Virus record (IMG/VR): IMGVR_UViG_2671180814_000016
Direction: 5' to 3' (one strand)
Source: a virus
Lineage: Duplodnaviria; Heunggongvirae; Uroviricota; Caudoviricetes
DNA: 11,321 nucleotides
Positions 1-11,321 of the stretch are shown piece after piece. Numbering within the stretch: the first letter of the stretch is position 1; every line of letters begins with the position of its first letter. The translations under genes and the position numbers were made by a program. Under the pieces are notes generated by a model. That model worked only from the letters and a program-made list of their open reading frames with translations, ran no database searches and had not been told where the DNA came from.

Positions 1-1494
<1,494 letters not shown>

Positions 1495-1639: not shown

Positions 1640-1942
1640 TCAAAGCCGCTTACATTTAATATCATCGTACAAAGTTCCTTCTTTGTTTAGATATCTCGAA
1701 CCGTAATTATATCCATCATCAAATGCTTCATTGGTTATTACCAGTTCCCTGTAAAATTTCTCATCAGGTGCTGTTTCATAATGAAATGCACCATAAGGCG
1801 GCGGCATTTTACCGAGATATCTTGTAACGTAGAAACTCATGTCAGTACTAAATGAATCGTTATGAATATCCCAGCATTTAAAGTCTGGAATAGCTGCACT
1901 TGTTGTTAAAGGTAATAATAATAGCAATATCAATTTTTCCAT
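1640..1942 (-). CDS. Small secreted protein (signal peptide, two Cys), unknown function
   Basis: ORF-track ORF 1640..2002 begins at a TTG. The internal ATG at 1940..1942 gives MEKLILLLLLPLTTSA|AIPDF, a typical Sec signal peptide with an A-x-A-like cleavage site. Mature protein ~84 aa. No strong RBS. Confidence 0.5.
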   Translation of the reverse strand: MEKLILLLLLPLTTSAAIPDFKCWDIHNDSFSTDMSFYVTRYLGKMPPPYGAFHYETAPDEKFYRELVITNEAFDDGYNYGSRYLNKEGTLYDDIKCKRL

Positions 1943-2105
1943 AAGAGATACCAATGCAAATGATTTAATTGCATGATAACACCTACAAAGTCTCAATACC
2001 AATTAACAAGCGATATGGCTGATTTTGTTTCAATTACGTAAAATAATTTAAAATATCGTTAATTAAAACAATTGTGATGAAATGCTCACCTTGTAATTTG
2101 TTGCG

Positions 2106-3352: not shown

Positions 3353-3904
3353 TTATCCTATTAATTTTTCACATTGCTCAAAACGCATTGGCCTGAACTC
3401 TCCCTGTACCGCCCATACACCGGCCTCTCTGAGAATTGGGTAATACGTTTTATCTCTGACGGGTACGATCACCTTCTCGCAGTACTGGCGAATGCTTTTT
3501 ATGAGTACTGGAAAGATCAGACGGTCAATGTTCTCTTCTGTGTACCTTCTATTTAATCGGGCAACCTCGAAATCACCTGTAACCAGAGGAATAGCAGAAC
3601 CACCATGTACACCGAGATCATCAAGCCACTGCTGGTTATGTACTTTCATATCCCTTGTCATCTGCCGAAGGAATGGTAAGTACTCGTATGGTTCACCACG
3701 GCCAGTAGTAATCACACAATACAAACCGTTATCCCTGAACCATGCCGCCTTGCTTTCAATAAGCATTAGTTGCCCATGAAGTACTTCTTCTTCCCATAGG
3801 CCGATCTGCCTGATTCCCTCGCGTTCTACATGGCTGACCAACTCAACCCCCAGCAACTGACCACCCAAACTTGTTATCGGTATTGCCCAATTATCAATGT
3901 TCAT
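3353..3904 (-). CDS. EAL-domain-like protein, probably catalytically degenerate (YdiV/PdeH-like motif order), 183 aa
   Basis: Motifs in EAL order and spacing: AIPITSLGGQLLGVELVSH (EAL box as ELV, Arg missing), QWLDDLGVHGG (DDFGTG-like), RQYCEKVIVPVRD (where EGVE is expected, substituted), AVQGEF (QG[YW]F-like). About 55 aa shorter than a canonical EAL domain. Assigned from recalled family motifs, not a search. Confidence 0.55.
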   Translation of the reverse strand: MNIDNWAIPITSLGGQLLGVELVSHVEREGIRQIGLWEEEVLHGQLMLIESKAAWFRDNGLYCVITTGRGEPYEYLPFLRQMTRDMKVHNQQWLDDLGVHGGSAIPLVTGDFEVARLNRRYTEENIDRLIFPVLIKSIRQYCEKVIVPVRDKTYYPILREAGVWAVQGEFRPMRFEQCEKLIG

Positions 3905-4096: not shown

Positions 4097-4408
4097 ATGA
4101 GCAAAGACGGCTATGATCCATCCATTACGCGAGGGGTTCAGAAGTTCTCACATAACGGTCGCTGGGCAACCGTGTGTTATTGGGGATCTGCACTAACAGA
4201 ATTTCATTATGGGGATAGGGTATTCTTCCAGAATCAGTACAGGGAATACTGGTTAGGTACTATAGAGAGAGATTGTTTTGTACTTACCTGTGAAACACCA
4301 CTAATAAGTGTTATTGATGGGTTAGCATATCTATCTGCTGAGTACCGGATGAATCAAAGCAGTGAAGAAGGTGATTGGTTCTGTGATCAGGGGGAACTAC
4401 CCTTCTGA
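4097..4408 (+). CDS. Hypothetical 103-aa protein, predicted SOS-regulated
   Basis: ATG start with strong SD GAGGAGGG 6 nt upstream; LexA box immediately upstream. No TM segment. C-terminal EEGDWFCDQGE faintly recalls the DinI C-terminus (DDWF), which is too weak to assign. Confidence 0.7.
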   Translation: MSKDGYDPSITRGVQKFSHNGRWATVCYWGSALTEFHYGDRVFFQNQYREYWLGTIERDCFVLTCETPLISVIDGLAYLSAEYRMNQSSEEGDWFCDQGELPF

Positions 4409-4413
4409 GGATA

Positions 4414-4466
4414 CACGTACTGCTCACCCCAACAAAATAACAAACCCAACATGTGAGCAGTACGTG
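4414..4466 (+). other. Perfect 14-bp inverted repeat (CACGTACTGCTCAC / GTGAGCAGTACGTG) with 25-nt A/C-rich spacer; stem-loop or dimeric binding site
   Basis: Arms 4414..4427 and 4453..4466 are exact reverse complements. Begins 6 bp after the stop of the 4097..4408 gene and precedes the 4541 gene. No U-run directly after, so not a canonical intrinsic terminator. Confidence 0.5.
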
Positions 4467-4540
4467 AACGGGTAGTGTACTTGATTGTGTTTCGGATGGT
4501 AAAGTATTTGCCCCTTTAATGCGTTCAGGAACTACTTTCG

Positions 4541-5209
4541 ATGGATTGTAGAAAATTAAATATCGTTCTTTTATCGACCGTAGCAGTATTACTGGTTGTT
4601 GTAATTTTAGTACTAATAAAATCACTCTTTGTTGGTTCTGAAGGTTTCGAGTGGGGATCGGTTAGTGACTGGGTTAGTTCTATTGCCAATCTCATTATGG
4701 CTGGAGCAGCCCTATATGCAGCATGGAACGCTAAAAATTGGTTTCAAACTAAAATAAAGGAAAATGCTTTAAATCAAGTTACTAAGTTCTGGACTAATTG
4801 CGATCTTTTTTCGTTGGAGATGTTGAAAACATATGAAAATATATGCAACCTTAACAATACTGAACCAGATATAGAACCAAAAAATTTCGCACATTTAGTT
4901 AAAACTGAACGAGAAGTTATCGATCTATTAAACATTAAGTTAGCCTCATTAAAAAGCGAATTGCAATCACTTACCTTTTGGAAAGTATCGCCAAAAGATG
5001 AAGCTATATTCAATAATTATTTCTTCAGTAATCAAATTGCTTTAGGAACATTGAGGGAAGCGATAAGTTTTGATATAAATGACATTCATGATAGATATCA
5101 TTACAATGTCAGCTATGGAAAGTTATTAGTAGATACATTTGATAGTTTAATAGAAGCACATGCAACCTTGAAAAAGGACATGAATAACTTATTCGTTTTC
5201 TCTAATTAG
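4541..5209 (+). CDS. Membrane protein: two N-terminal TM helices plus ~150-aa soluble domain, unknown function
   Basis: 222-aa ORF with ATG start; weak SD (AGGA 10 nt upstream). TM segments LNIVLLSTVAVLLVVVILVLI and VSSIANLIMAGAALYAAW. Very AT-rich and nearly devoid of GTAC, unlike flanking DNA. Confidence 0.6.
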   Translation: MDCRKLNIVLLSTVAVLLVVVILVLIKSLFVGSEGFEWGSVSDWVSSIANLIMAGAALYAAWNAKNWFQTKIKENALNQVTKFWTNCDLFSLEMLKTYENICNLNNTEPDIEPKNFAHLVKTEREVIDLLNIKLASLKSELQSLTFWKVSPKDEAIFNNYFFSNQIALGTLREAISFDINDIHDRYHYNVSYGKLLVDTFDSLIEAHATLKKDMNNLFVFSN

Positions 5210-5229
5210 AGTCCACAACTCCCAATAGA

Positions 5230-5248
5230 CGGTGGGGTATCCTCACCG
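5230..5248. other. GC-rich hairpin CGGTGGGG-tat-CCTCACCG (8-bp stem with one G-U) between convergent genes
   Basis: Read directly. Begins 21 bp after the stop of the 4541..5209 gene. No flanking U-run, so terminator function is uncertain. Confidence 0.35.
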
Positions 5249-5385
5249 CTATAACTAACATCTCAACATTAAGATTTATAAGGTCTTCATTAAAGTACTC
5301 CCCCTTTCGTACCTCCTATATAAATAGAGGAAGTAATATATATCACCATCGTAGGTGTTAAATTCCATTCTTATCATCTCGTAAA

Positions 5386-5427
5386 CCCTATAGTGGGTTA
5401 GTAGTTCTAACCCTCAATCTATAGTGG
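5386..5427. repeat. Hairpin GGGTTAG-tagtt-CTAACCC (5395..5413) bracketed by direct repeats CTATAGTGG (5388..5396, 5419..5427)
   Basis: Read directly in the convergent intergenic region 5210..5465. The 7-bp stem arms are exact reverse complements; the 9-bp direct repeat is exact. Confidence 0.4.
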
Positions 5428-5465
5428 CATCTAACATTTACCTTACATTCCAAAAAATATTATTC

Positions 5466-5939
5466 TTAAGTCTTTTTATCTTGCTTAAGTAATGCAATGA
5501 GTCTGTGAGAGTTAGGGATTTTATGTTCATTCCCCTCCACATCTAAAATAGTTATATCTTCTAAATGACAAATATCACATTCATTATCTATCGTGACTAA
5601 GTCTGAGCTTACCAATTCAAATTTTTTTCTTTGCTTTTCTTTAATAACAATGCTCTCTTTTGGAGATGAATGGCTCCTAATGCCTTTTTCATAATGGCAA
5701 AGCATCCCTTCCAAAACTGCATCACGCCTACCAACATTGATCACTATCACCTCGATTTTATAAGGTTCCTCATCAAAAGACTCGTAGACGAGGTCAGCTG
5801 TTATTTTTAGCCTTGATCTATCATGCCATGCTGCCCTACCGGAGAAGTATAAGGAAGTACATGCAATAATAAATGACAACGCCGAAAAAGCAATAGTTAA
5901 CACATCTTTATATGTAGCTGCTATTGTTGTTATGCTCAT
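5466..5939 (-). CDS. Membrane-anchored protein (one N-terminal TM helix), unknown function
   Basis: 157-aa ORF with ATG start. TM segment LTIAFSALSFIIACTSLYF. Follows the HNH gene on the same strand after an 82-bp gap. AT-rich and GTAC-poor. Confidence 0.55.
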   Translation of the reverse strand: MSITTIAATYKDVLTIAFSALSFIIACTSLYFSGRAAWHDRSRLKITADLVYESFDEEPYKIEVIVINVGRRDAVLEGMLCHYEKGIRSHSSPKESIVIKEKQRKKFELVSSDLVTIDNECDICHLEDITILDVEGNEHKIPNSHRLIALLKQDKKT

Positions 5940-6021
5940 TTTTCTCTCAACTTACATGTCTAATTTAAAGCATATTGTATTCATAACTTTTCAAGTATGT
6001 CGTATCAAGTCTAAAATAAAT

Positions 6022-6765
6022 TCAAATTTTATTGCTGTCTTTAAACAACAGTGCTTTTAAACTTTCGACACTTAATACTTCGTTACCGCGATGTACCATT
6101 GCGTGACAGTTTGGACAAAGTGGAACCATATCAGTAATTGGATTTACCTCGTAATCCTCGCCTACTGTGTGTAGCGGTTTGATATGATGAACGTGTATAA
6201 AGCCCTTGGCGTGTTCACCATAGACTTTCTCAAAGTTAAACTCACAACACCCGCAGGAAGTACCATGATGGTCAATACAAGCCTGTCGTGCTTTTGGATC
6301 ACGCTCGTAGGAGTTTACTGTAACTTGCTTTTTTGCACCCTCAGCGTAGTTTTCAGGTGAGGTAATTTCATCTGGAAATGGATTAGGTAAAAAGTCTGCA
6401 TACCAAACTGTTCCTTCTTTCCGAAGGTAACGTTTTTCAAGTTTTGGAGTGAACCGTTTGATAACAGCTACATCTCTATTCTCATCGTTTCGTCCCTGCT
6501 CCATATCAAACGTGTAAAGCTCATAACCTTCAGCTATCAATTGAATGTGTTCAATAGCTTGAATATATCCAAGATTTTTTCTTTCCTTTCCCTCCACAAC
6601 TTTGGTTTTCCACCGCTCCCTCAGAATGACTGATCTTTCTTGCTCTTTTTGTACATCCCATGCACCAAAGATAACCATTTTCTTGTCGTGGTTCACAAAT
6701 GACCAACTCCAAGTCCAGTTACTACAAGTAGCACCATGCGACTGGATGAATTGTTTTCTGTTCAT
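6022..6765 (-). CDS. McrA-like zinc-finger HNH nuclease with an unassigned ~170-aa N-terminal domain
   Basis: 247-aa ORF with ATG start and strong RBS GAGAGGGA. C-terminus CGCCEFNFEKVYGEHAKGFIHVHHIKPLHTVGEDYEVNPITDMVPLCPNCHAMVH matches the CxxC...HH...N...CPNCH..H pattern of McrA-type HNH domains as recalled from E. coli McrA. The N-terminal region matches no domain I can name. Confidence 0.8.
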   Translation of the reverse strand: MNRKQFIQSHGATCSNWTWSWSFVNHDKKMVIFGAWDVQKEQERSVILRERWKTKVVEGKERKNLGYIQAIEHIQLIAEGYELYTFDMEQGRNDENRDVAVIKRFTPKLEKRYLRKEGTVWYADFLPNPFPDEITSPENYAEGAKKQVTVNSYERDPKARQACIDHHGTSCGCCEFNFEKVYGEHAKGFIHVHHIKPLHTVGEDYEVNPITDMVPLCPNCHAMVHRGNEVLSVESLKALLFKDSNKI

Positions 6766-6955
6766 GGTATCCCTCTCTTAATTCCCTCTTTGTACACAAA
6801 AAATGCCTACTTGATCCAGTACTTTATGTAGCTATCCAATAGCATCATAGTAGTGGAAATGACCAGAGCGAGAGTTGTGGAACTGGCGGGGCATGTCGTA
6901 CTTACCAATTCACTTTAGGTACTTCATTTGCTGTACTAACATCTATCGAGCAAAG

Positions 6956-7052
6956 CGAGTAGTAACGCCTTGCGGGTTTTCGAGTACTGGCGAGAAAAAC
7001 GCAACGTTACTAACCAATACTACGAGGAGTTCACGACGAGTAGTATTCGTGA
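6956..7052. other. Structured non-coding segment: imperfect 13-bp hairpin (6960..7012), nested stems ATACTAC/GTAGTAT and TCACGA/TCGTGA, and 9-bp direct repeat CGAGTAGTA (6956..6964, 7037..7045)
   Basis: Read directly inside the 463-bp gap between the 7229..7690 gene and the HNH gene. The only ORF here (6875..7135, plus) has a TTG start, no RBS and implausible composition. Confidence 0.4.
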
Positions 7053-7136
7053 CGCAAGTCACAGTTTCTTGGAATACTGATAGAGAAAGAAATACATGGA
7101 ATGAAATGGAATGGATTTCGTATCTCTATACTTAGT

Positions 7137-7220
7137 TGCCGTATTGATGGTAAATAGCGGGTTTCAGGGGCTTTTTTTGCCGTATTACGGCATACATCCA
7201 TGCCGTAATATGCCGTAATA
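7137..7220. repeat. Iteron-like array: five copies of TGCCGTA core — 7137..7143 (direct), 7178..7192 (15-bp palindrome TGCCGTA-T-TACGGCA), 7201..7210 and 7211..7220 (exact tandem TGCCGTAATA x2)
   Basis: Read directly. A T7 run (7172..7178) abuts the palindrome. The tandem copies have 10-bp periodicity. Located just 3' of the 7229..7690 gene and ~370 bp 5' of the HNH gene. Confidence 0.6.
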
Positions 7221-7228
7221 AGTTACAA

Positions 7229-7690
7229 TTAACGCAAGCCCTTTAAGTACTCGATCATGTCATCAATAAAGTCACCTTGTTTTTGTAGTTCCAATAGTTT
7301 ACCAAACTCTTTATATGTTAGTGTTCTTTGTCCATATACTGGTGCTGGCAGTGCGTTTGGGTGTGCCAACATATACTGCTCTATTCGTTTTGCTGCATCC
7401 GTGATCGCTGCCCCATAGTACCTGATCATACGTTCTTTTACTTGTTTCTTATTCTGTTGTACTTTAATAGCATTGATAGTATTGAATAGTAAATCATTCC
7501 GTAATTCATCTTCATTACTCAATACTGCAAACACATCATATACACTAATCTTATCTCTCACTTTAAGTTTAGCTACTGAGTCCTTCATGATGTTCTTGAT
7601 GTCTTCGCATGGGATATCTTTATATAGCTTGTACTGGCTAATTAGTGCTTTTATGTTTCTGTTATCAAAAGTTGAATAGGTTTTTGCCAT
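7229..7690 (-). CDS. Hypothetical protein, 153 aa, predicted alpha-helical, unknown function
   Basis: ORF with ATG start; SD-like AGGA 9 nt upstream. No recognisable motif. Confidence 0.6.
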   Translation of the reverse strand: MAKTYSTFDNRNIKALISQYKLYKDIPCEDIKNIMKDSVAKLKVRDKISVYDVFAVLSNEDELRNDLLFNTINAIKVQQNKKQVKERMIRYYGAAITDAAKRIEQYMLAHPNALPAPVYGQRTLTYKEFGKLLELQKQGDFIDDMIEYLKGLR

Positions 7691-7784
7691 GATAAATAAT
7701 CCTGTATAAATTAATTAATCGTGACCCGTAGTGATTACAGGCCATTTAATAAGTTTGGCTTCATTGCCATTGAGTTTTGAATAG

Positions 7785-7815
7785 ATGCCAGTACTGGAAT
7801 ACTGGCATTTTTTAT
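7785..7815. terminator. Hairpin ATGCCAGTA-ctggaa-TACTGGCAT followed by T-run ATTTTTTAT on the plus strand; possible bidirectional terminator at the 3' end of the HNH homing endonuclease gene
   Basis: Stem arms are exact reverse complements and contain the palindrome CCAGTACTGG. The U-run is strong in plus orientation and weak in minus orientation. The T-run overlaps the minus-strand stop codon of the 7812..8366 gene. Confidence 0.45.
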
Positions 7816-8366
7816 GGTTTACGTTGAATGGTTAGGCTTTGTATTCTTTGTCTTTGCTTATTCGTAAGATATGTTGTGTACCATTTTGAATAGGTAGTAC
7901 CTTTGAATAACTTACCTATATTCTGAGGGCAAATATTAATACCAGTTTGATTTAAAAACCATTTAGTGATTGCATATTGAGATAATTGTCCTTTAAGGTA
8001 CTCTCCAACAATCATTAACCATTGCTTTAGAGTAAGCTTTTGAGTACGAGTACCTTTATGCTTTCTATTGGAATTATTAACCTTCTGAGTTACCCAACGT
8101 AAATTTTTTGCTTTGTTATTCATTTTATCGCGGTCGATATGATCTACAGTGTATCTTCCTCCAATGGGTTTAGCACCATTGAATAAAGTACAAACCAAAA
8201 CATGTACATATAGTGATTTGCCATTAATAGAAACTTTTTTGTATCCATTAGATGGGTTTTTCGTAGCTATATACTGTTTTGTTTTATCATTGTAAACATC
8301 GCCATTTTCAGATACGTAGTAATGTTTTGAATTTGGAATTAATCTCCAAGTGATTTTAGGGTTCAT
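7812..8366 (-). CDS. HNH homing endonuclease (HNH_3 / NUMOD4-type) with probable C-terminal DNA-binding region
   Basis: 184-aa ORF with ATG start and RBS AAGGA 8 nt upstream. N-terminal W.LIP....YYVSENGDVY (NUMOD4-like), then YVHVLVCTLFNG...VDHIDRDKMNNKAKNLRWVTQKVN, typical of free-standing phage HNH homing endonucleases. Confidence 0.8.
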   Translation of the reverse strand: MNPKITWRLIPNSKHYYVSENGDVYNDKTKQYIATKNPSNGYKKVSINGKSLYVHVLVCTLFNGAKPIGGRYTVDHIDRDKMNNKAKNLRWVTQKVNNSNRKHKGTRTQKLTLKQWLMIVGEYLKGQLSQYAITKWFLNQTGINICPQNIGKLFKGTTYSKWYTTYLTNKQRQRIQSLTIQRKP

Positions 8367-10033: not shown

Positions 10034-11321
10034 TTAATCCATCCAATCAATCATATCTTCATTAACAATGATCTCAAATTTTTCACGCTTGAGAAGATTA
10101 AGATACAATCCAACATCATCAAGTATTTTGGTACGGCTAATGGCAAGCGACCACATATCAGTACCAGATGTAACGGAGGCAATGAAAACGGTTTTGCCCT
10201 CTTCATTGACAGTGTAGACACGCTCGCCGCTTGTTTCAGAGATTACGATCTCATGTAGTACTTCACCCCCGCCCCGCTTGTTATCAATCACAAGCGTATG
10301 GGATAGGACATCATTGAAGTATTCCAACTGTACAAATATACGCTTTTCAAAAACCCAGTACTTAACAGATTTCAGTACTAATCTTACTTCTTTCCGTAAC
10401 TTTGCACGTAACTCGACATTCAATGGATCAAGTACTTTATTAATATCGAAATCAAATACAGGGATTTCTTTGATGTTCTTTGAATTTAATATCTCAGATT
10501 CTATTTCTTCAATTCTATCCTGTACCTCAGTTAAACCCGTCATTAATGGTAACGAGGCTTTCTTACCTGCTGCCTTACGTTCATTAATTTTAACCTGATA
10601 GGTTTCTGCCTCTTTCTGTAAAGTACTTAACTCTTCTCGCAATGATGCAAGCAATGAATCTGAATCCGACTTACCTTCCATCATCAATTTATTGAAGTCT
10701 ACATTTTTGACAAGCTGTAGAATGTTCTTTTCAATTCTCATGTACTGGATAGATTTAGCATCGCAGATCTTCTTTTCTTCCCTGTTACGACAAATAACAT
10801 ACTTAGTTCGTACATGATTATAGTGAATTGCAATATTGCCCCCACAGTGACCGCATTTCAGCATCTTCGGGAAGAGGTTAGTAATGTAATCATCCTGAGC
10901 AATGGTAATGTCCTTACGGATACGATTAGCTATACCATTCCGCGATAACTTCTCATTAGCCCGTTCAAAGGTGAGGTTATCGATAATCTTCATGGTAACT
11001 ACTTTCTTATCACGTAGTACCCTCAGTACATTGACGGTACTCCACCCTTTCGGCAAGCGTTTTACAATCGCCCCTGAACCAAGGCCTGTCTCATAAAGTT
11101 TAAAAATCTCTCGGACAACTTCTGGTTCAAGTAATAGATCCTCTGCTGGCTTCTTCTTCTCCAACATAACGCGATCCATCATTCTATTCGCTGTCAGGAA
11201 CAACTCTTCGTCGATGATTTTCGGGTAAACGTTTGGTACTACCTCACCGTTGTAACGTTCATGCTCGCCCAACAAACGGCGATCACGTATCTGAGGTGTA
11301 CTGGCAATAGCGGACACTACC
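10034..11321 (-). CDS. Large serine recombinase/integrase, C-terminal ~428 residues; 5' end (catalytic resolvase domain) beyond the right edge
   Basis: Frame is open to the window edge; the ORF-track start at 11317 is a GTG and probably not the true start. Contains recombinase-domain-like segments (YPKIIDEELF, EPEVVREIFKLYETGLGSGAIVKRL), a zinc-ribbon motif (CGHCGG...C..C) and a coiled-coil-like stretch (LREELSTLQKEAETYQVKINERK), the architecture of large serine recombinases. Confidence 0.65.
   Translation of the reverse strand, partial: VVSAIASTPQIRDRRLLGEHERYNGEVVPNVYPKIIDEELFLTANRMMDRVMLEKKKPAEDLLLEPEVVREIFKLYETGLGSGAIVKRLPKGWSTVNVLRVLRDKKVVTMKIIDNLTFERANEKLSRNGIANRIRKDITIAQDDYITNLFPKMLKCGHCGGNIAIHYNHVRTKYVICRNREEKKICDAKSIQYMRIEKNILQLVKNVDFNKLMMEGKSDSDSLLASLREELSTLQKEAETYQVKINERKAAGKKASLPLMTGLTEVQDRIEEIESEILNSKNIKEIPVFDFDINKVLDPLNVELRAKLRKEVRLVLKSVKYWVFEKRIFVQLEYFNDVLSHTLVIDNKRGGGEVLHEIVISETSGERVYTVNEEGKTVFIASVTSGTDMWSLAISRTKILDDVGLYLNLLKREKFEIIVNEDMIDWMD

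What the first reader, a model, noticed from the sequence alone, without database searches (positions are those of the whole stretch)
4541..6765. GTAC-poor, extra-AT-rich block (membrane protein, TM protein, McrA-like HNH) looks like a separately acquired cassette
Flanking DNA carries GTAC roughly once per 100 bp. The three genes at 4541..5209, 5466..5939 and 6022..6765 together contain only about four (manual count). The block is bounded on the left by the 14-bp perfect hairpin at 4414..4466 and on the right by the iteron-rich non-coding region. The convergent gap inside it (5210..5465) holds a hairpin flanked by direct repeats. This compositional discontinuity suggests a moron-type insertion, and its content (nuclease plus membrane proteins) fits a defence or exclusion cassette.
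Basis: partly seen in the sequence, partly recalled or inferred. Interest (0 to 1): 0.6.

Follow-up and report, generated by a model that had tools for sequence, protein, structure and literature searches.

The report
Prophage defence genes lacking backbone's GTAC enrichment
The three genes are long-standing accessory (probably anti-phage) cargo of an undescribed ~30-kb prophage family of enterobacteria; the odd thing is the rest of the phage, which is packed with GTAC and has no GCGC at all, for reasons not yet known.

Summary
The count is real but was read the wrong way round. The block 4541-6765 has 7 GTAC, and its own base composition predicts 7.3. The flanks have 53 and 50 against about 15 expected each, so the backbone is enriched and the block is ordinary. 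The window is a decayed low-GC prophage beside yeaG in Shigella. It belongs to an undescribed ~30-kb temperate phage family of Enterobacterales. Family-wide, GTAC is 2.5x enriched (AGTACT 8-10x in this subfamily) and GCGC is absent (0 against 305 expected).

The block is not one recently acquired cassette:
- Its genes recur at the same position in relatives with other recombinases, attachment sites and hosts.
- Neither block edge is a shared breakpoint.
- The parts reshuffle independently, and more distant members lack them.

Across the family, the HNH, 157-aa and 222-aa gene families stay at chance GTAC (46 against 44 expected; P = 5e-12 against the family rate). They still share the GCGC avoidance, are under purifying selection, and have saturated synonymous sites.

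The HNH protein has a McrA-type nuclease domain and a probably SRA-like N-terminal reader, which fits a type IV restriction enzyme. Homologues occur as morons and in defence islands. The two membrane proteins have no assignable function. The cause of the GTAC enrichment is unexplained.

The parts
4097..4408 (+). 103-aa gene (phrog_2100, function unknown). It is a backbone-type, GTAC-rich gene whose 3' end is collinear with the 222-aa module in relatives.
   Evidence: PHROG hit, E = 5e-9. GTAC 4 against 1.1 expected. Homology window 4268-5309 = L016 and 4312-5194 = L013 runs through it.
4414..4466 (+). Conserved stem-loop with a 14-bp perfect stem and a 25-nt A/C-rich loop, between the 103-aa and 222-aa genes. 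No T-run follows it, so it is not a canonical terminator and it is not a module junction.
   Evidence: Found by the repeat finder. L016 has a different stem, CACGCTACACCTAC/GTAGGTGTAGCGTG, with 7 of 14 positions changed and all compensated. The terminator scan did not call it.
4541..5209 (+). 222-aa membrane protein with one strong TM segment (residues 8-26), a conserved N-terminal segment and a variable helical C-terminal part. Function unknown. The family is restricted to Enterobacterales.
   Evidence: Hydropathy 3.47. 42 homologue clusters, none with Pfam, PADLOC, NCBIfam or PHROG hits. Invariant residues E37 G39 S42 D43. dN/dS 0.14-0.24. GTAC O/E 1.2 over 6 loci.
5210..5465 (.). Convergent intergenic gap, which is the true variable hotspot of the region. 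It holds a small conserved hairpin at 5390-5418. L016 carries four extra genes here, L036 carries about 1.9 kb, and L013 has nothing but 118 bp.
5466..5939 (-). 157-aa single-pass membrane protein: an N-terminal TM helix (residues 13-31) followed by an Ig-like beta-sandwich. It is the second gene of the operon after HNH, or after a different first gene in L019-L021. Function unknown.
6022..6765 (-). 247-aa HNH endonuclease: a C-terminal McrA-type HNH/Cys4 nuclease (about residues 141-236) and an N-terminal beta-rich domain of about 125 residues that is probably an SRA/PUA-like modified-base reader. It is a predicted type IV (modification-dependent) restriction enzyme.
6766..7228 (-). 463-bp non-coding leader upstream of HNH, conserved at about 90% in L016, L017 and L036. 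It contains a family-wide element of about 110 nt (6899-7008) and TGCCGTAAT-type repeats (7171-7227).
6899..7008 (-). Conserved non-coding element found across the whole family at the point where the conserved early genes give way to the variable region, whichever gene follows. It includes a hairpin TTGCG-TTTTTCTCG ... CGAAAAC-CGCAA with GTAC in the loop. It may be regulatory or a recombination boundary.
   Evidence: blastn hits in L001, L013, L016, L017, L019-L022, L026, L029, L035 and L036. Alignment. 11 pairs, 6 with compensatory changes, but a weak consensus energy of -3.4 kcal/mol. No Rfam family.
7229..7690 (-). 153-aa early-region gene of unknown function. It is collinear with HNH in one module in L016, L017, L036 and L037, but it is GTAC-enriched like the backbone.
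   Evidence: 90-92% aa identity. GTAC O/E 2.9 over 4 loci. Continuous nucleotide match 6055-7739.

Best explanation
The block is the resident cargo of the variable (accessory or defence) region of an undescribed ~30-kb temperate phage family of Enterobacterales. It is not one recently inserted cassette.

The phage family:
- It has a large serine recombinase at one end and lambda-type TerS, TerL, portal and capsid genes.
- It has an orphan DNA amino-methyltransferase at the far end.
- It integrates beside yeaG or msyB.
- In Shigella the prophage is broken by IS elements, but the block is kept intact.

The block has two parts:
1. A leftward operon. The first gene is a 247-aa nuclease and the second is a 157-aa membrane-anchored Ig-like protein.
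2. A convergent 222-aa membrane protein.

Mechanism proposed (inferred):
- The nuclease is a type IV, modification-dependent restriction enzyme.
- Its N-terminal SRA/PUA-like domain senses a modified base, most likely a modified cytosine.
- Its McrA-type HNH/zinc-finger domain then cuts the DNA.
- Expressed from the prophage, it would protect the lysogen from phages or plasmids with modified DNA. This parallels McrA carried on the e14 prophage.
- The two membrane proteins are conserved partners of unknown role.

The compositional signal is a property of the backbone. Something keeps GTAC 2.5-3.4x enriched in most phage genes. The three block gene families, and other conflict-type cassettes, are exempt from it, although they obey the family's absolute GCGC avoidance. 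I read this as a different selective regime or gene pool for defence cargo, not a recent arrival.

Shown: the counts, the synteny, the domain matches and purifying selection. Inferred: modification dependence, expression in the lysogen, the defence role, and the reason for the exemption.
For: Identity of the element:
- An IS2 end lies at window 1-41.
- Exact copies occur beside yeaG in S. sonnei and S. dysenteriae genomes.
- Relatives occur beside yeaG in E. coli and E. cloacae and beside msyB in Kluyvera, C. koseri and an Enterobacter-like contig.
- Probing with TerL found 15 more loci on viral contigs of 29-34 kb.
- No sequenced phage is close. The best TerL match is 38%.

Conservation and mosaicism:
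- Protein identities: HNH 90-93%, 157-aa 60-64%, 222-aa 68-82%. The recombinase is only 22-26% identical in the msyB relatives, and TerS is about 35-42% in L017 and L036 but 71% in L016.
- Continuous nucleotide matches run across both block edges.
- The order is reshuffled in L001 and L019.
- The genes are absent from L023, L024, L027, L028 and L034.

Function:
- for HNH.
- The literature describes SRA-HNH and EVE-HNH enzymes as modification-dependent restriction enzymes (PMC6212794, PMC4333417, PMC7897488, PMC6765204) and describes EcoKMcrA (PMC6182155).
- Defence-type neighbourhoods of homologues.
- dN/dS is 0.08-0.26.
- The block is identical in all eight Shigella loci despite IS damage elsewhere.

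Composition:
-.
- Synonymous-codon shuffles give 83 against 45 +/- 5 for the backbone and 5 against 5.5 for the block.
- Family-wide O/E is 2.48. HNH is the most significant low outlier (P = 2e-7), and the three families pooled give P = 5e-12.
- The pattern replicates in L037, where a DuOB-DUF488-DUF4326 cassette is also unenriched.
- GCGC is 0 against about 17 expected in the block families, yet present in HNH homologues outside the family.
Against: - Nothing shows that the genes are expressed in the lysogen. No significant promoter or terminator was predicted.
- The two membrane proteins match no defence model.
- GTAC enrichment does not track how widely a gene is shared. Genes seen in a single locus are still 2.1x enriched, so 'accessory means unenriched' is not a general rule.
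- At least one widespread small gene in the structural region is also unenriched.
- Three HNH clades occur in the family and one is 89-90% identical to an island copy. Repeated outside replacement of HNH therefore cannot be excluded.
Confidence: 0.6

Rival explanations
1. 4541-6765 is a single moron or defence cassette acquired recently and as a unit by this prophage, bounded by the 4414-4466 hairpin and the non-coding region.
For: The block has GTAC at chance while the flanks are 3.4x enriched. It has the least backbone-like tetranucleotide profile. GTA makes up 30% of Val codons, against 54% in the backbone. More distant relatives lack the genes.
Against: The same genes lie at the same position in relatives with other recombinases, attachment sites and hosts. 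Continuous homology crosses both proposed edges. The parts reshuffle separately. GCGC avoidance is shared with the family. dS reaches saturation between family copies.
Confidence: 0.08
2. Functional exemption. GTAC (GTACT) is a working DNA motif of the phage, for example the target of its core amino-methyltransferase or of a silencing or packaging protein. Genes that must act in the lysogen are kept free of extra sites by selection. On this view the GTAC-normal state marks lysogeny-expressed cargo and says nothing about origin.
For: The enrichment is at the DNA level: it appears in all three codon frames and in non-coding DNA, and it exceeds codon-usage expectation. It is family-wide. GTAC sites are somewhat more conserved than average 4-mers, 56% against 43 +/- 11%. 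The block genes stay unenriched despite dS > 1 and despite conforming to the GCGC avoidance. A core NPPF-motif DNA methyltransferase exists and its gene is the most GTAC-rich cluster.
Against: The methyltransferase's specificity is unknown. No methylome report of GTAC methylation in E. coli or Shigella was found. The recombinase, which must be made in the lysogen for excision, is still about 2x enriched. There is no expression data. Site conservation is only about 1.2 SD above the mean.
Confidence: 0.2
3. Repeated import. The block genes, HNH above all, are continually replaced from a pool of non-phage defence islands whose DNA is not GTAC-enriched, faster than they can ameliorate.
For: The HNH family has 906 homologues across many phyla. 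Three HNH clades occur in the phage family, and one is 89-90% identical to an E. coli ffs-island copy. Homologues occur as a moron in a Morganella prophage and in a Pseudomonas defence island.
Against: Every context examined for the 157-aa and 222-aa families lies within this phage family. Family copies lack GCGC while outside HNH copies carry it. Window-to-L001 divergence of HNH (73%) and the 222-aa protein (79%) resembles that of the recombinase (75%) and TerS (80%), which is consistent with co-descent. The ffs island is itself GCGC-free and 1.8x GTAC-enriched, so it may be a relative of the family.
Confidence: 0.1
4. The HNH protein is a phage-propagation factor, for example an HNH partner of terminase for cos cleavage as in HK97-like phages, and not a defence enzyme.
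For: HNH endonucleases near terminase genes are common in cos phages (established knowledge). This phage has lambda-type terminase genes.
Against: The gene lies about 5 kb from TerS, with unrelated genes between. Many family members with 77-88% identical TerL lack it. It has an extra N-terminal reader-like domain. Homologues sit in non-phage islands and inside a tail-gene cluster. PADLOC matches type IV models.
Confidence: 0.03
5. The GTAC dip is a chance fluctuation or a by-product of amino-acid composition.
For: The scan-corrected significance within the single window is borderline, LLR 9.0 against a null 95th percentile of 8.1.
Against: The same three gene families are at chance GTAC in every family member examined, pooled P = 5e-12. 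Recoding the block proteins with backbone codon usage still predicts more sites than observed once the backbone's context enrichment is applied.
Confidence: 0.02

Closest known systems
SRA-HNH and PUA-HNH modification-dependent (type IV) restriction endonucleases: TagI, ScoA3IV, TbiR51I, ScoMcrA, and the EVE-HNH enzyme VcaM4I
EcoKMcrA, the type IV enzyme carried on the e14 prophage of E. coli K-12
   Same: The HNH/zinc-finger nuclease domain is homologous (6ghc, E = 3e-5, residues 141-229 against 183-270). Both are prophage-borne solitary nucleases in E. coli or Shigella.
   Different: The similarity covers the nuclease domain only. The N-terminal domains are unrelated in sequence, so 'McrA-like' applies only to the catalytic half.
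Phage morons and prophage defence hotspots (lambdoid morons; the P2 and P4 hotspots of antiviral systems)
   Same: Variable cargo sits at a fixed genome position between conserved flanks. Its composition differs from the backbone. The cargo includes nuclease and conflict-type genes in different members: HNH, an Mrr_cat-like gene, a GTPase, DUF3800, DuOB-DUF488-DUF4326 and Tlde1_dom.
   Different: No defence activity has been shown. No clear own promoter or terminator was found. The block genes are older and more conserved in the family than a typical sporadic moron. The compositional contrast is one specific word (GTAC), not GC content.
Restriction-site avoidance in phage genomes
   Same: The family shows textbook avoidance of short palindromes: GCGC in every member, and CTAG, AGTACT or TGCA in particular lineages.
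   Different: GTAC goes the opposite way, being enriched 2.5-3.4x. Avoidance theory does not predict this, and I found no report of it.

Membership tests
PUA/SRA-HNH modification-dependent (type IV) restriction endonucleases | C-terminal HNH (beta-beta-alpha-Me) nuclease with catalytic His/Asn and a Cys4 zinc site | tested here: met
   Pfam HNH 27.6 bits, above the 21.4 cutoff. PADLOC mREase_IV. PDB 6ghc and 5zmm. Invariant C171, C174, H193, H194, C217, N219, C220, H221 and H225 in 30 homologues.
PUA/SRA-HNH modification-dependent (type IV) restriction endonucleases | N-terminal modified-base reader domain of the PUA superfamily (SRA or EVE) | tested here: inconclusive
PUA/SRA-HNH modification-dependent (type IV) restriction endonucleases | Solitary nuclease with no cognate methyltransferase beside it | tested here: met
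   No methyltransferase lies within the window. The phage's only methyltransferase lies at the far end of the genome.
PUA/SRA-HNH modification-dependent (type IV) restriction endonucleases | Cleavage depends on base modification (5mC, 5hmC or other) | not testable with these tools
   Needs enzyme assays or phage and plasmid restriction tests.
EcoKMcrA family proper | Homology over the whole protein, including the McrA N-terminal methylcytosine-binding domain | tested here: not met
   The phmmer alignment to 6ghc covers query residues 141-229 only. Nothing matches residues 1-140.
Phage moron | Nucleotide composition distinct from the neighbouring phage genes | tested here: met
   GTAC at chance against 3.4x in the flanks. 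Tetranucleotide r = 0.54 against 0.69 +/- 0.05. GTA makes up 30% against 54% of Val codons.
Phage moron | Present in some relatives and cleanly absent in others, as a discrete insertion between conserved genes | tested here: not met
   The genes are absent from distant members. But the interval 4541-6765 is never present or absent as a unit, homology crosses both edges, and the parts move separately.
Phage moron | Own promoter and terminator | tested here: inconclusive
   Consensus scans found no more sites than shuffles gave (11 against 13.7 promoters, 2 against 2.0 terminators). The conserved hairpins at 4414-4466 and 5390-5418 lack T-runs.
Prophage defence hotspot | Fixed position with conserved flanks and diverse cargo among relatives | tested here: met
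   The conserved 110-nt element and early genes lie on one side and TerS on the other. The cargo differs among L001, L013, L016, L017, L019, L023, L036 and L037.
Prophage defence hotspot | The cargo is made of demonstrated or model-matched defence systems | tested here: inconclusive
   Only HNH matches a PADLOC model, and only in its nuclease domain. The 157-aa and 222-aa proteins match nothing. Other members carry Mrr_cat-like, GTPase, DUF3800, DuOB/DUF488/DUF4326 and Tlde1_dom genes. No activity has been tested.
Superinfection-exclusion membrane proteins (Sie, Imm or Cor type) | Homology or a shared fold with a known exclusion protein | tested here: not met
   No hits in Pfam, NCBIfam, PHROGs or PADLOC. 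The 157-aa fold is a generic TM helix plus Ig-like sandwich.

The most novel reading that the evidence does not exclude
GTAC (core GTACT) is a functional, positively maintained genome-wide mark of a previously undescribed ~30-kb temperate phage family. It may be the target of the family's conserved orphan NPPF amino-methyltransferase, which would give a densely self-marked genome, or the binding word of a phage protein. Together with the family's absolute GCGC avoidance, it would form a sequence-level self-identity code. Defence cargo such as the HNH, 157-aa and 222-aa genes is held outside the GTAC rule while obeying the GCGC rule. GTAC density would then separate two functional classes of phage genes, not old genes from new ones.
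Probability: 0.2. Interest if true: 0.75.

Novelty: new member of a known kind. Interest (0 to 1): 0.45.

Why it matters
Taken alone, the block is an ordinary kind of thing. It is a prophage-borne candidate type IV restriction enzyme with two uncharacterised membrane partners, sitting in a variable accessory region. It adds a testable enzyme family of about 900 homologues whose N-terminal reader is not recognised by current domain models.

An unstudied phage family, widespread in E. coli, Shigella, Citrobacter, Enterobacter and Kluyvera, shows three features:
- It enriches GTAC 2.5-3.4x at the DNA level.
- It contains no GCGC at all.
- A few conflict-type gene families are exempt from the first rule but not the second.

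Over-representation of a short palindrome is the opposite of what restriction avoidance predicts. If it reflects a self-marking or regulatory system, that would be new phage biology. In the meantime, GTAC density is a practical marker for spotting the unenriched conflict-type cassettes in these prophages.

Tried and rejected
- Megablast of the window against phage records found nothing. Against plasmids it found only the IS2 end.
- The first genome-contig scan, using the recombinase, found no relative.
- Amelioration or residence-time model: rejected as a general rule. GTAC O/E does not correlate with how widely a gene is shared (rho = 0.15, P = 0.10), and single-locus genes are 2.1x enriched.
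- Periodic spacing of GTAC sites: none seen.
- Longer motif: A at -1 and T at +4 give AGTACT in this subfamily. But the hexamer adds nothing beyond its pentamers, and it is nearly absent in L029, L030 and L032, which are still GTAC-rich.
- Site-level conservation of GTAC: only modestly above average.
- Literature searches for GTAC or AGTACT enrichment, hypermodification or methylation in enterobacterial phages found nothing relevant. PabI-type GTAC glycosylases and H. pylori GTAC methylation exist but are unrelated here.
- The methyltransferase has no hit in Pfam, NCBIfam or the PDB. Only a PHROG match and sequence motifs identify it.
- The idea that the family's HNH_3 nuclease is a T5 SciA-like GCGC nickase has no sequence support. 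It matches I-HmuI.
- An Rfam search of the window and of the leader region found nothing.
- The full Chi sequence is not enriched, although GGTGGT and CTGGTG hexamers are.


Full report
**1. What the window is**

Bases 1-41 are the end of an IS2 element. The rest has about 37% G+C. It encodes, right to left:
- the C-terminal 427 aa of a large serine recombinase (10034-11317);
- small early genes, including an I-HmuI-like HNH_3/NUMOD4 nuclease (7812-8366);
- a 153-aa gene;
- a 463-bp non-coding stretch;
- the three genes of the finding;
- several small genes;
- a Nu1-like TerS (350-895).

The 247-aa HNH protein occurs, with exactly this sequence, beside yeaG in S. sonnei 53G and other Shigella assemblies. 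There the TerL gene is split by IS2, and IS21 or IS1 have removed other parts. The window is therefore a decayed prophage. The block is base-for-base identical in all eight Shigella loci fetched.

**2. Checking the observation**

- GTAC occurs 110 times, against 35 +/- 6 in dinucleotide-preserving shuffles.
- The block 4541-6765 has 7 sites, 5 of them inside the three genes. The rest of the window has 103 in 9096 bp.
- The decisive point is the direction of the anomaly. The block's own base composition predicts 7.3 sites and it has 7. The flanks have 53 and 50, against 15.6 and 14.9 expected. The block is normal and the backbone is about 3.4x enriched.
- The enrichment is at the DNA level. It is present in all three codon frames (39, 23 and 26 sites) and in non-coding DNA (0.86 per 100 bp, against 1.0 in coding DNA).
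- Shuffling synonymous codons within the backbone genes gives 45.0 +/- 4.9, against 83 observed (0 of 2000 shuffles reach it). The block gives 5 against 5.5 +/- 1.8.
- In this subfamily the word extends to AGTACT: 32 in the window backbone against 3.0 expected, and 162 against 19.7 over 58 kb of relatives, but only 3 in 27.7 kb of host flank.
- 'Extra-AT-rich' is not supported. Block GC is 0.358, against 0.383 and 0.362 in the flanks.
- The block does have the least backbone-like tetranucleotide profile of any 2.2-kb segment, even with GTAC words removed.
- Within this one window, a scan over all intervals makes the dip only borderline: LLR 9.0 against a null 95th percentile of 8.1.
- The hairpin at 4414-4466, the small hairpin with 9-nt repeats in the gap, and a few TGCCGTAAT-like repeats at 7171-7227 are all present.

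**3. The element belongs to a phage family**

- Relatives were found through the block proteins and, independently of the block, through TerL.
- They lie beside yeaG (E. coli, E. cloacae) or beside msyB (Kluyvera, C. koseri, an Enterobacter-like contig). The recombinases at the two sites are only 22-26% identical.
- Viral contigs are 29-34 kb.
- No deposited phage is close. The best TerL match is 38%.
- Every member has 34-41% G+C.
- GTAC runs at 6-10 per kb. Over 413 phage ORFs (291 kb), 2375 are observed against 958 expected, an O/E of 2.48.
- GCGC is absent: 0 against 305 expected in 256 kb.
- Host flanks and IS elements show neither feature.
- Other avoided words are lineage-specific. CTAG is 0 in the window, L016, L036 and L037 but 16-87 in most of the TerL-probed viral contigs (L022-L034), with L027 (4) and L035 (9) lower. 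AGTACT is 0-1 in L029, L030 and L032, which remain GTAC-rich. TGCA is 1 in L027.

**4. Is the block a separately acquired unit? No.**

- C. koseri L017 and L018 have the identical arrangement: 153-aa gene, HNH, 155-aa gene, then the 222-aa gene on the opposite strand.
- L016 has all three genes, with four extra genes inserted in the convergent gap. L036 has all three with about 1.9 kb inserted. L013 has HNH and the 221-aa gene directly convergent. L037 has HNH followed by a 157-aa gene.
- L001 and L019-L021 have the same families reshuffled. A different gene precedes the 155-aa gene, the 228-aa gene faces it, and HNH is paired with a DUF6998-like gene.
- At nucleotide level, window 5308-7739 is one 86% match in L017 and 6055-7739 is one 89.6% match in L016. 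The right edge at 6765 is therefore not a junction there, although it is one in L013.
- Window 4268-5309 is continuous in L016 and 4312-5194 in L013. The left edge and the hairpin are therefore not junctions either.
- The real variable spot is inside the block, at about 5310-5950.
- More distant members (L023, L024, L027, L028, L034) lack all three genes in the 8-9 kb upstream of TerS and carry other genes there.
- The region between a family-wide conserved 110-nt non-coding element (window 6899-7008) and TerS thus behaves as a variable accessory region. The block genes are a recurrent part of its cargo.

**5. The GTAC contrast replicates and is specific**

- Across the family the HNH cluster (10 loci) has 25 GTAC against 24.4 expected. 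This is the most significant low outlier of 56 clusters (P = 2e-7 against the family rate).
- The 222-aa cluster has O/E 1.20, the 157-aa cluster 0.75, and the neighbouring 252-aa '8xMP' cluster 0.32. The three block families pooled give P = 5e-12.
- In L037, core genes are 2.2-3.6x enriched. HNH, the 157-aa gene, two adjacent unknown genes and a DuOB-DUF488-DUF4326/mSLOG cassette are at or below chance.
- GTAC enrichment does not correlate with how many loci share a gene (rho = 0.15). Genes seen in a single locus are 2.1x enriched. Simple amelioration with residence time therefore fails as an explanation.
- The block genes are not naive imports. Family copies contain no GCGC (0 against 11.3 expected for HNH and 0 against about 17 pooled), whereas HNH homologues outside the family do.
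- They are under purifying selection, with dN/dS of 0.08-0.26.
- Their synonymous sites are largely or fully saturated between family copies, with dS from 0.35 to above 1.5.
- Window-to-L001 identities of HNH (73%) and the 222-aa protein (79%) resemble those of the recombinase (75%) and TerS (80%).
- From this I infer that a uniform mutational drive on all phage DNA does not maintain the backbone's GTAC excess. The block genes lie outside whatever does maintain it.
- Repeated replacement from outside remains possible for HNH. Three clades occur in the family, and one is 89-90% identical to an E. coli ffs-island copy.

**6. What the genes are**

HNH (247 aa):
- The C-terminal half is a McrA-type HNH/Cys4 nuclease: Pfam HNH; PADLOC mREase_IV; 6ghc, E = 3e-5; invariant Cys and His residues.
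- The N-terminal ~125 residues are strongly conserved but match no domain model.
- Foldseek found nothing significant, so this is moderate evidence only.
- SRA-HNH and EVE-HNH fusions are established type IV enzymes (PMC6212794, PMC4333417, PMC7897488, PMC6765204).
- The family has 906 homologues, from Enterobacterales to Pseudomonas, Verrucomicrobia and beyond.
- Contexts of homologues include a moron inside a Morganella lambdoid tail cluster, a Pseudomonas island with an OLD/UvrD pair and a GmrSD_N gene, and E. coli islands with a type III R subunit or a DNA methyltransferase.

157-aa protein:
- It has one TM helix and an Ig-like beta-sandwich.
- Only generic fold matches were found.

222-aa protein:
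- It has one strong TM segment, a conserved N-terminal stretch and a variable C-terminal part.
- It gave no hit in any library.

Both of these families are confined to Enterobacterales. Every context I examined lies within this phage family.

**7. Verdict**

The rest of the interpretation does not hold. The interval is not a recent single-unit insertion bounded by the hairpin and the 'iterons'. It is conserved, reshuffling accessory cargo of a phage family, and the anomaly lies in the backbone.

The best-supported mechanism is a prophage-encoded, modification-dependent HNH restriction enzyme with two membrane partners of unknown role. Why the family enriches GTAC, why it has no GCGC, and why a few conflict-type gene families escape the first rule but not the second remain open. 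A conserved orphan NPPF-motif DNA methyltransferase at the far end of the genome is the most obvious lead. I found no published account of this pattern.

Noticed in passing
whole window and all family loci (L001, L013, L016, L017, L019, L022-L037): GTAC is 2.5-3.4x over-represented throughout this prophage family, in all codon frames and in non-coding DNA, and beyond codon usage. In this subfamily the word is AGTACT, at 8-10x. Host flanks and IS elements lack the enrichment. No explanation and no literature precedent was found.
   Followed up: yes
whole window; L022-L032 and L034-L036: GCGC is completely absent from the phage family: 0 against 11.7 expected (Markov-2) in the window, and 0 against 305 expected from base composition in 256 kb of viral contigs. 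This holds across many host genera, which suggests a cause intrinsic to the phage and not one host's restriction system. The block genes share this avoidance.
   Followed up: partly
window (CTAG 0 against 25 expected); L022-L036: Word avoidance is lineage-specific. CTAG is 0 in the window, L016, L036 and L037 but 16-87 in most of the other viral-contig members. AGTACT is 0-1 in L029, L030 and L032, although GTAC stays enriched there. TGCA is 1 in L027. CGAG, CTGC and GGAG are also depleted.
   Followed up: partly
window 6899-7008 (minus strand): A non-coding element of about 110 nt is conserved across the whole family at the start of the variable region, whichever gene follows it. It contains a hairpin with GTAC in the loop and some compensatory changes. 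There is no Rfam match. It may be a regulatory site or a boundary sequence for module exchange.
   Followed up: partly
window 4414-4466: The 14-bp stem-loop between the 103-aa and 222-aa genes is kept in L016 with a different stem sequence: 7 of 14 positions are changed and all are compensated. This indicates selection for the structure itself. No T-run follows it.
   Followed up: yes
window 7171-7227: Three to four direct and inverted copies of a TGCCGTAAT-like word lie immediately after the stop codon of the 153-aa gene. They are conserved in L016, L017 and L036. This could be an operator-like site or an unusual terminator.
   Followed up: no
L001 5909-6619, and 31 IMG/VR loci L043-L073: A 236-aa DNA amino-methyltransferase is a core gene at the far end of the ~30-kb phage. 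It matches phrog_3820 and has the motifs AGIG and NPPF. Its own gene is the most GTAC-rich cluster (O/E 5.1). It is a candidate enzyme acting on GTAC, but its specificity is unknown.
   Followed up: partly
L037 12564-14966; L010 5896-7595: A DuOB - DUF488 - DUF4326/mSLOG cassette sits in the accessory region of the E. cloacae family member and is GTAC-free. The same trio occurs in the E. coli ffs island that carries a 90%-identical HNH. That island is itself GCGC-free and 1.8x GTAC-enriched, so it may be a relative of the phage family.
   Followed up: no
window 1-41; L002-L009: The Shigella prophage is heavily decayed: IS2 lies in TerL, IS21 in the accessory region, and IS1 directly upstream of the HNH leader in some strains. 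Even so, the 2.2-kb block is 100% identical in all eight loci.
   Followed up: partly
window 7812-8366 (minus strand): There is an I-HmuI-like HNH_3/NUMOD4 homing-type endonuclease (PDB 1u3e, E = 4e-13). It is conserved at 89% in Kluyvera and present in several family members. It shows no sequence similarity to T5 SciA, the GCGC nickase.
   Followed up: partly
window 3353-3904 (minus strand); L037 11866-12540: The 183-aa protein has weak similarity to the C-terminal part of EAL-type c-di-GMP phosphodiesterases, and its L037 counterpart hits Pfam EAL. This cluster is among the most GTAC-rich (O/E 4.6).
   Followed up: no
window 1640-2002 and 2162-2602: Two further small genes, a secreted or lipoprotein-like 120-aa protein and a multi-TM 146-aa protein, are also close to chance GTAC (2 against 1.1 and 2 against 1.3). 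The counts are too small to be significant on their own.
   Followed up: no
L022-L034 structural regions: The Chi-like hexamers GGTGGT, CTGGTG and TGGTGG are 7-10x enriched in several loci, although the full Chi octamer occurs only 0-2 times per locus.
   Followed up: no
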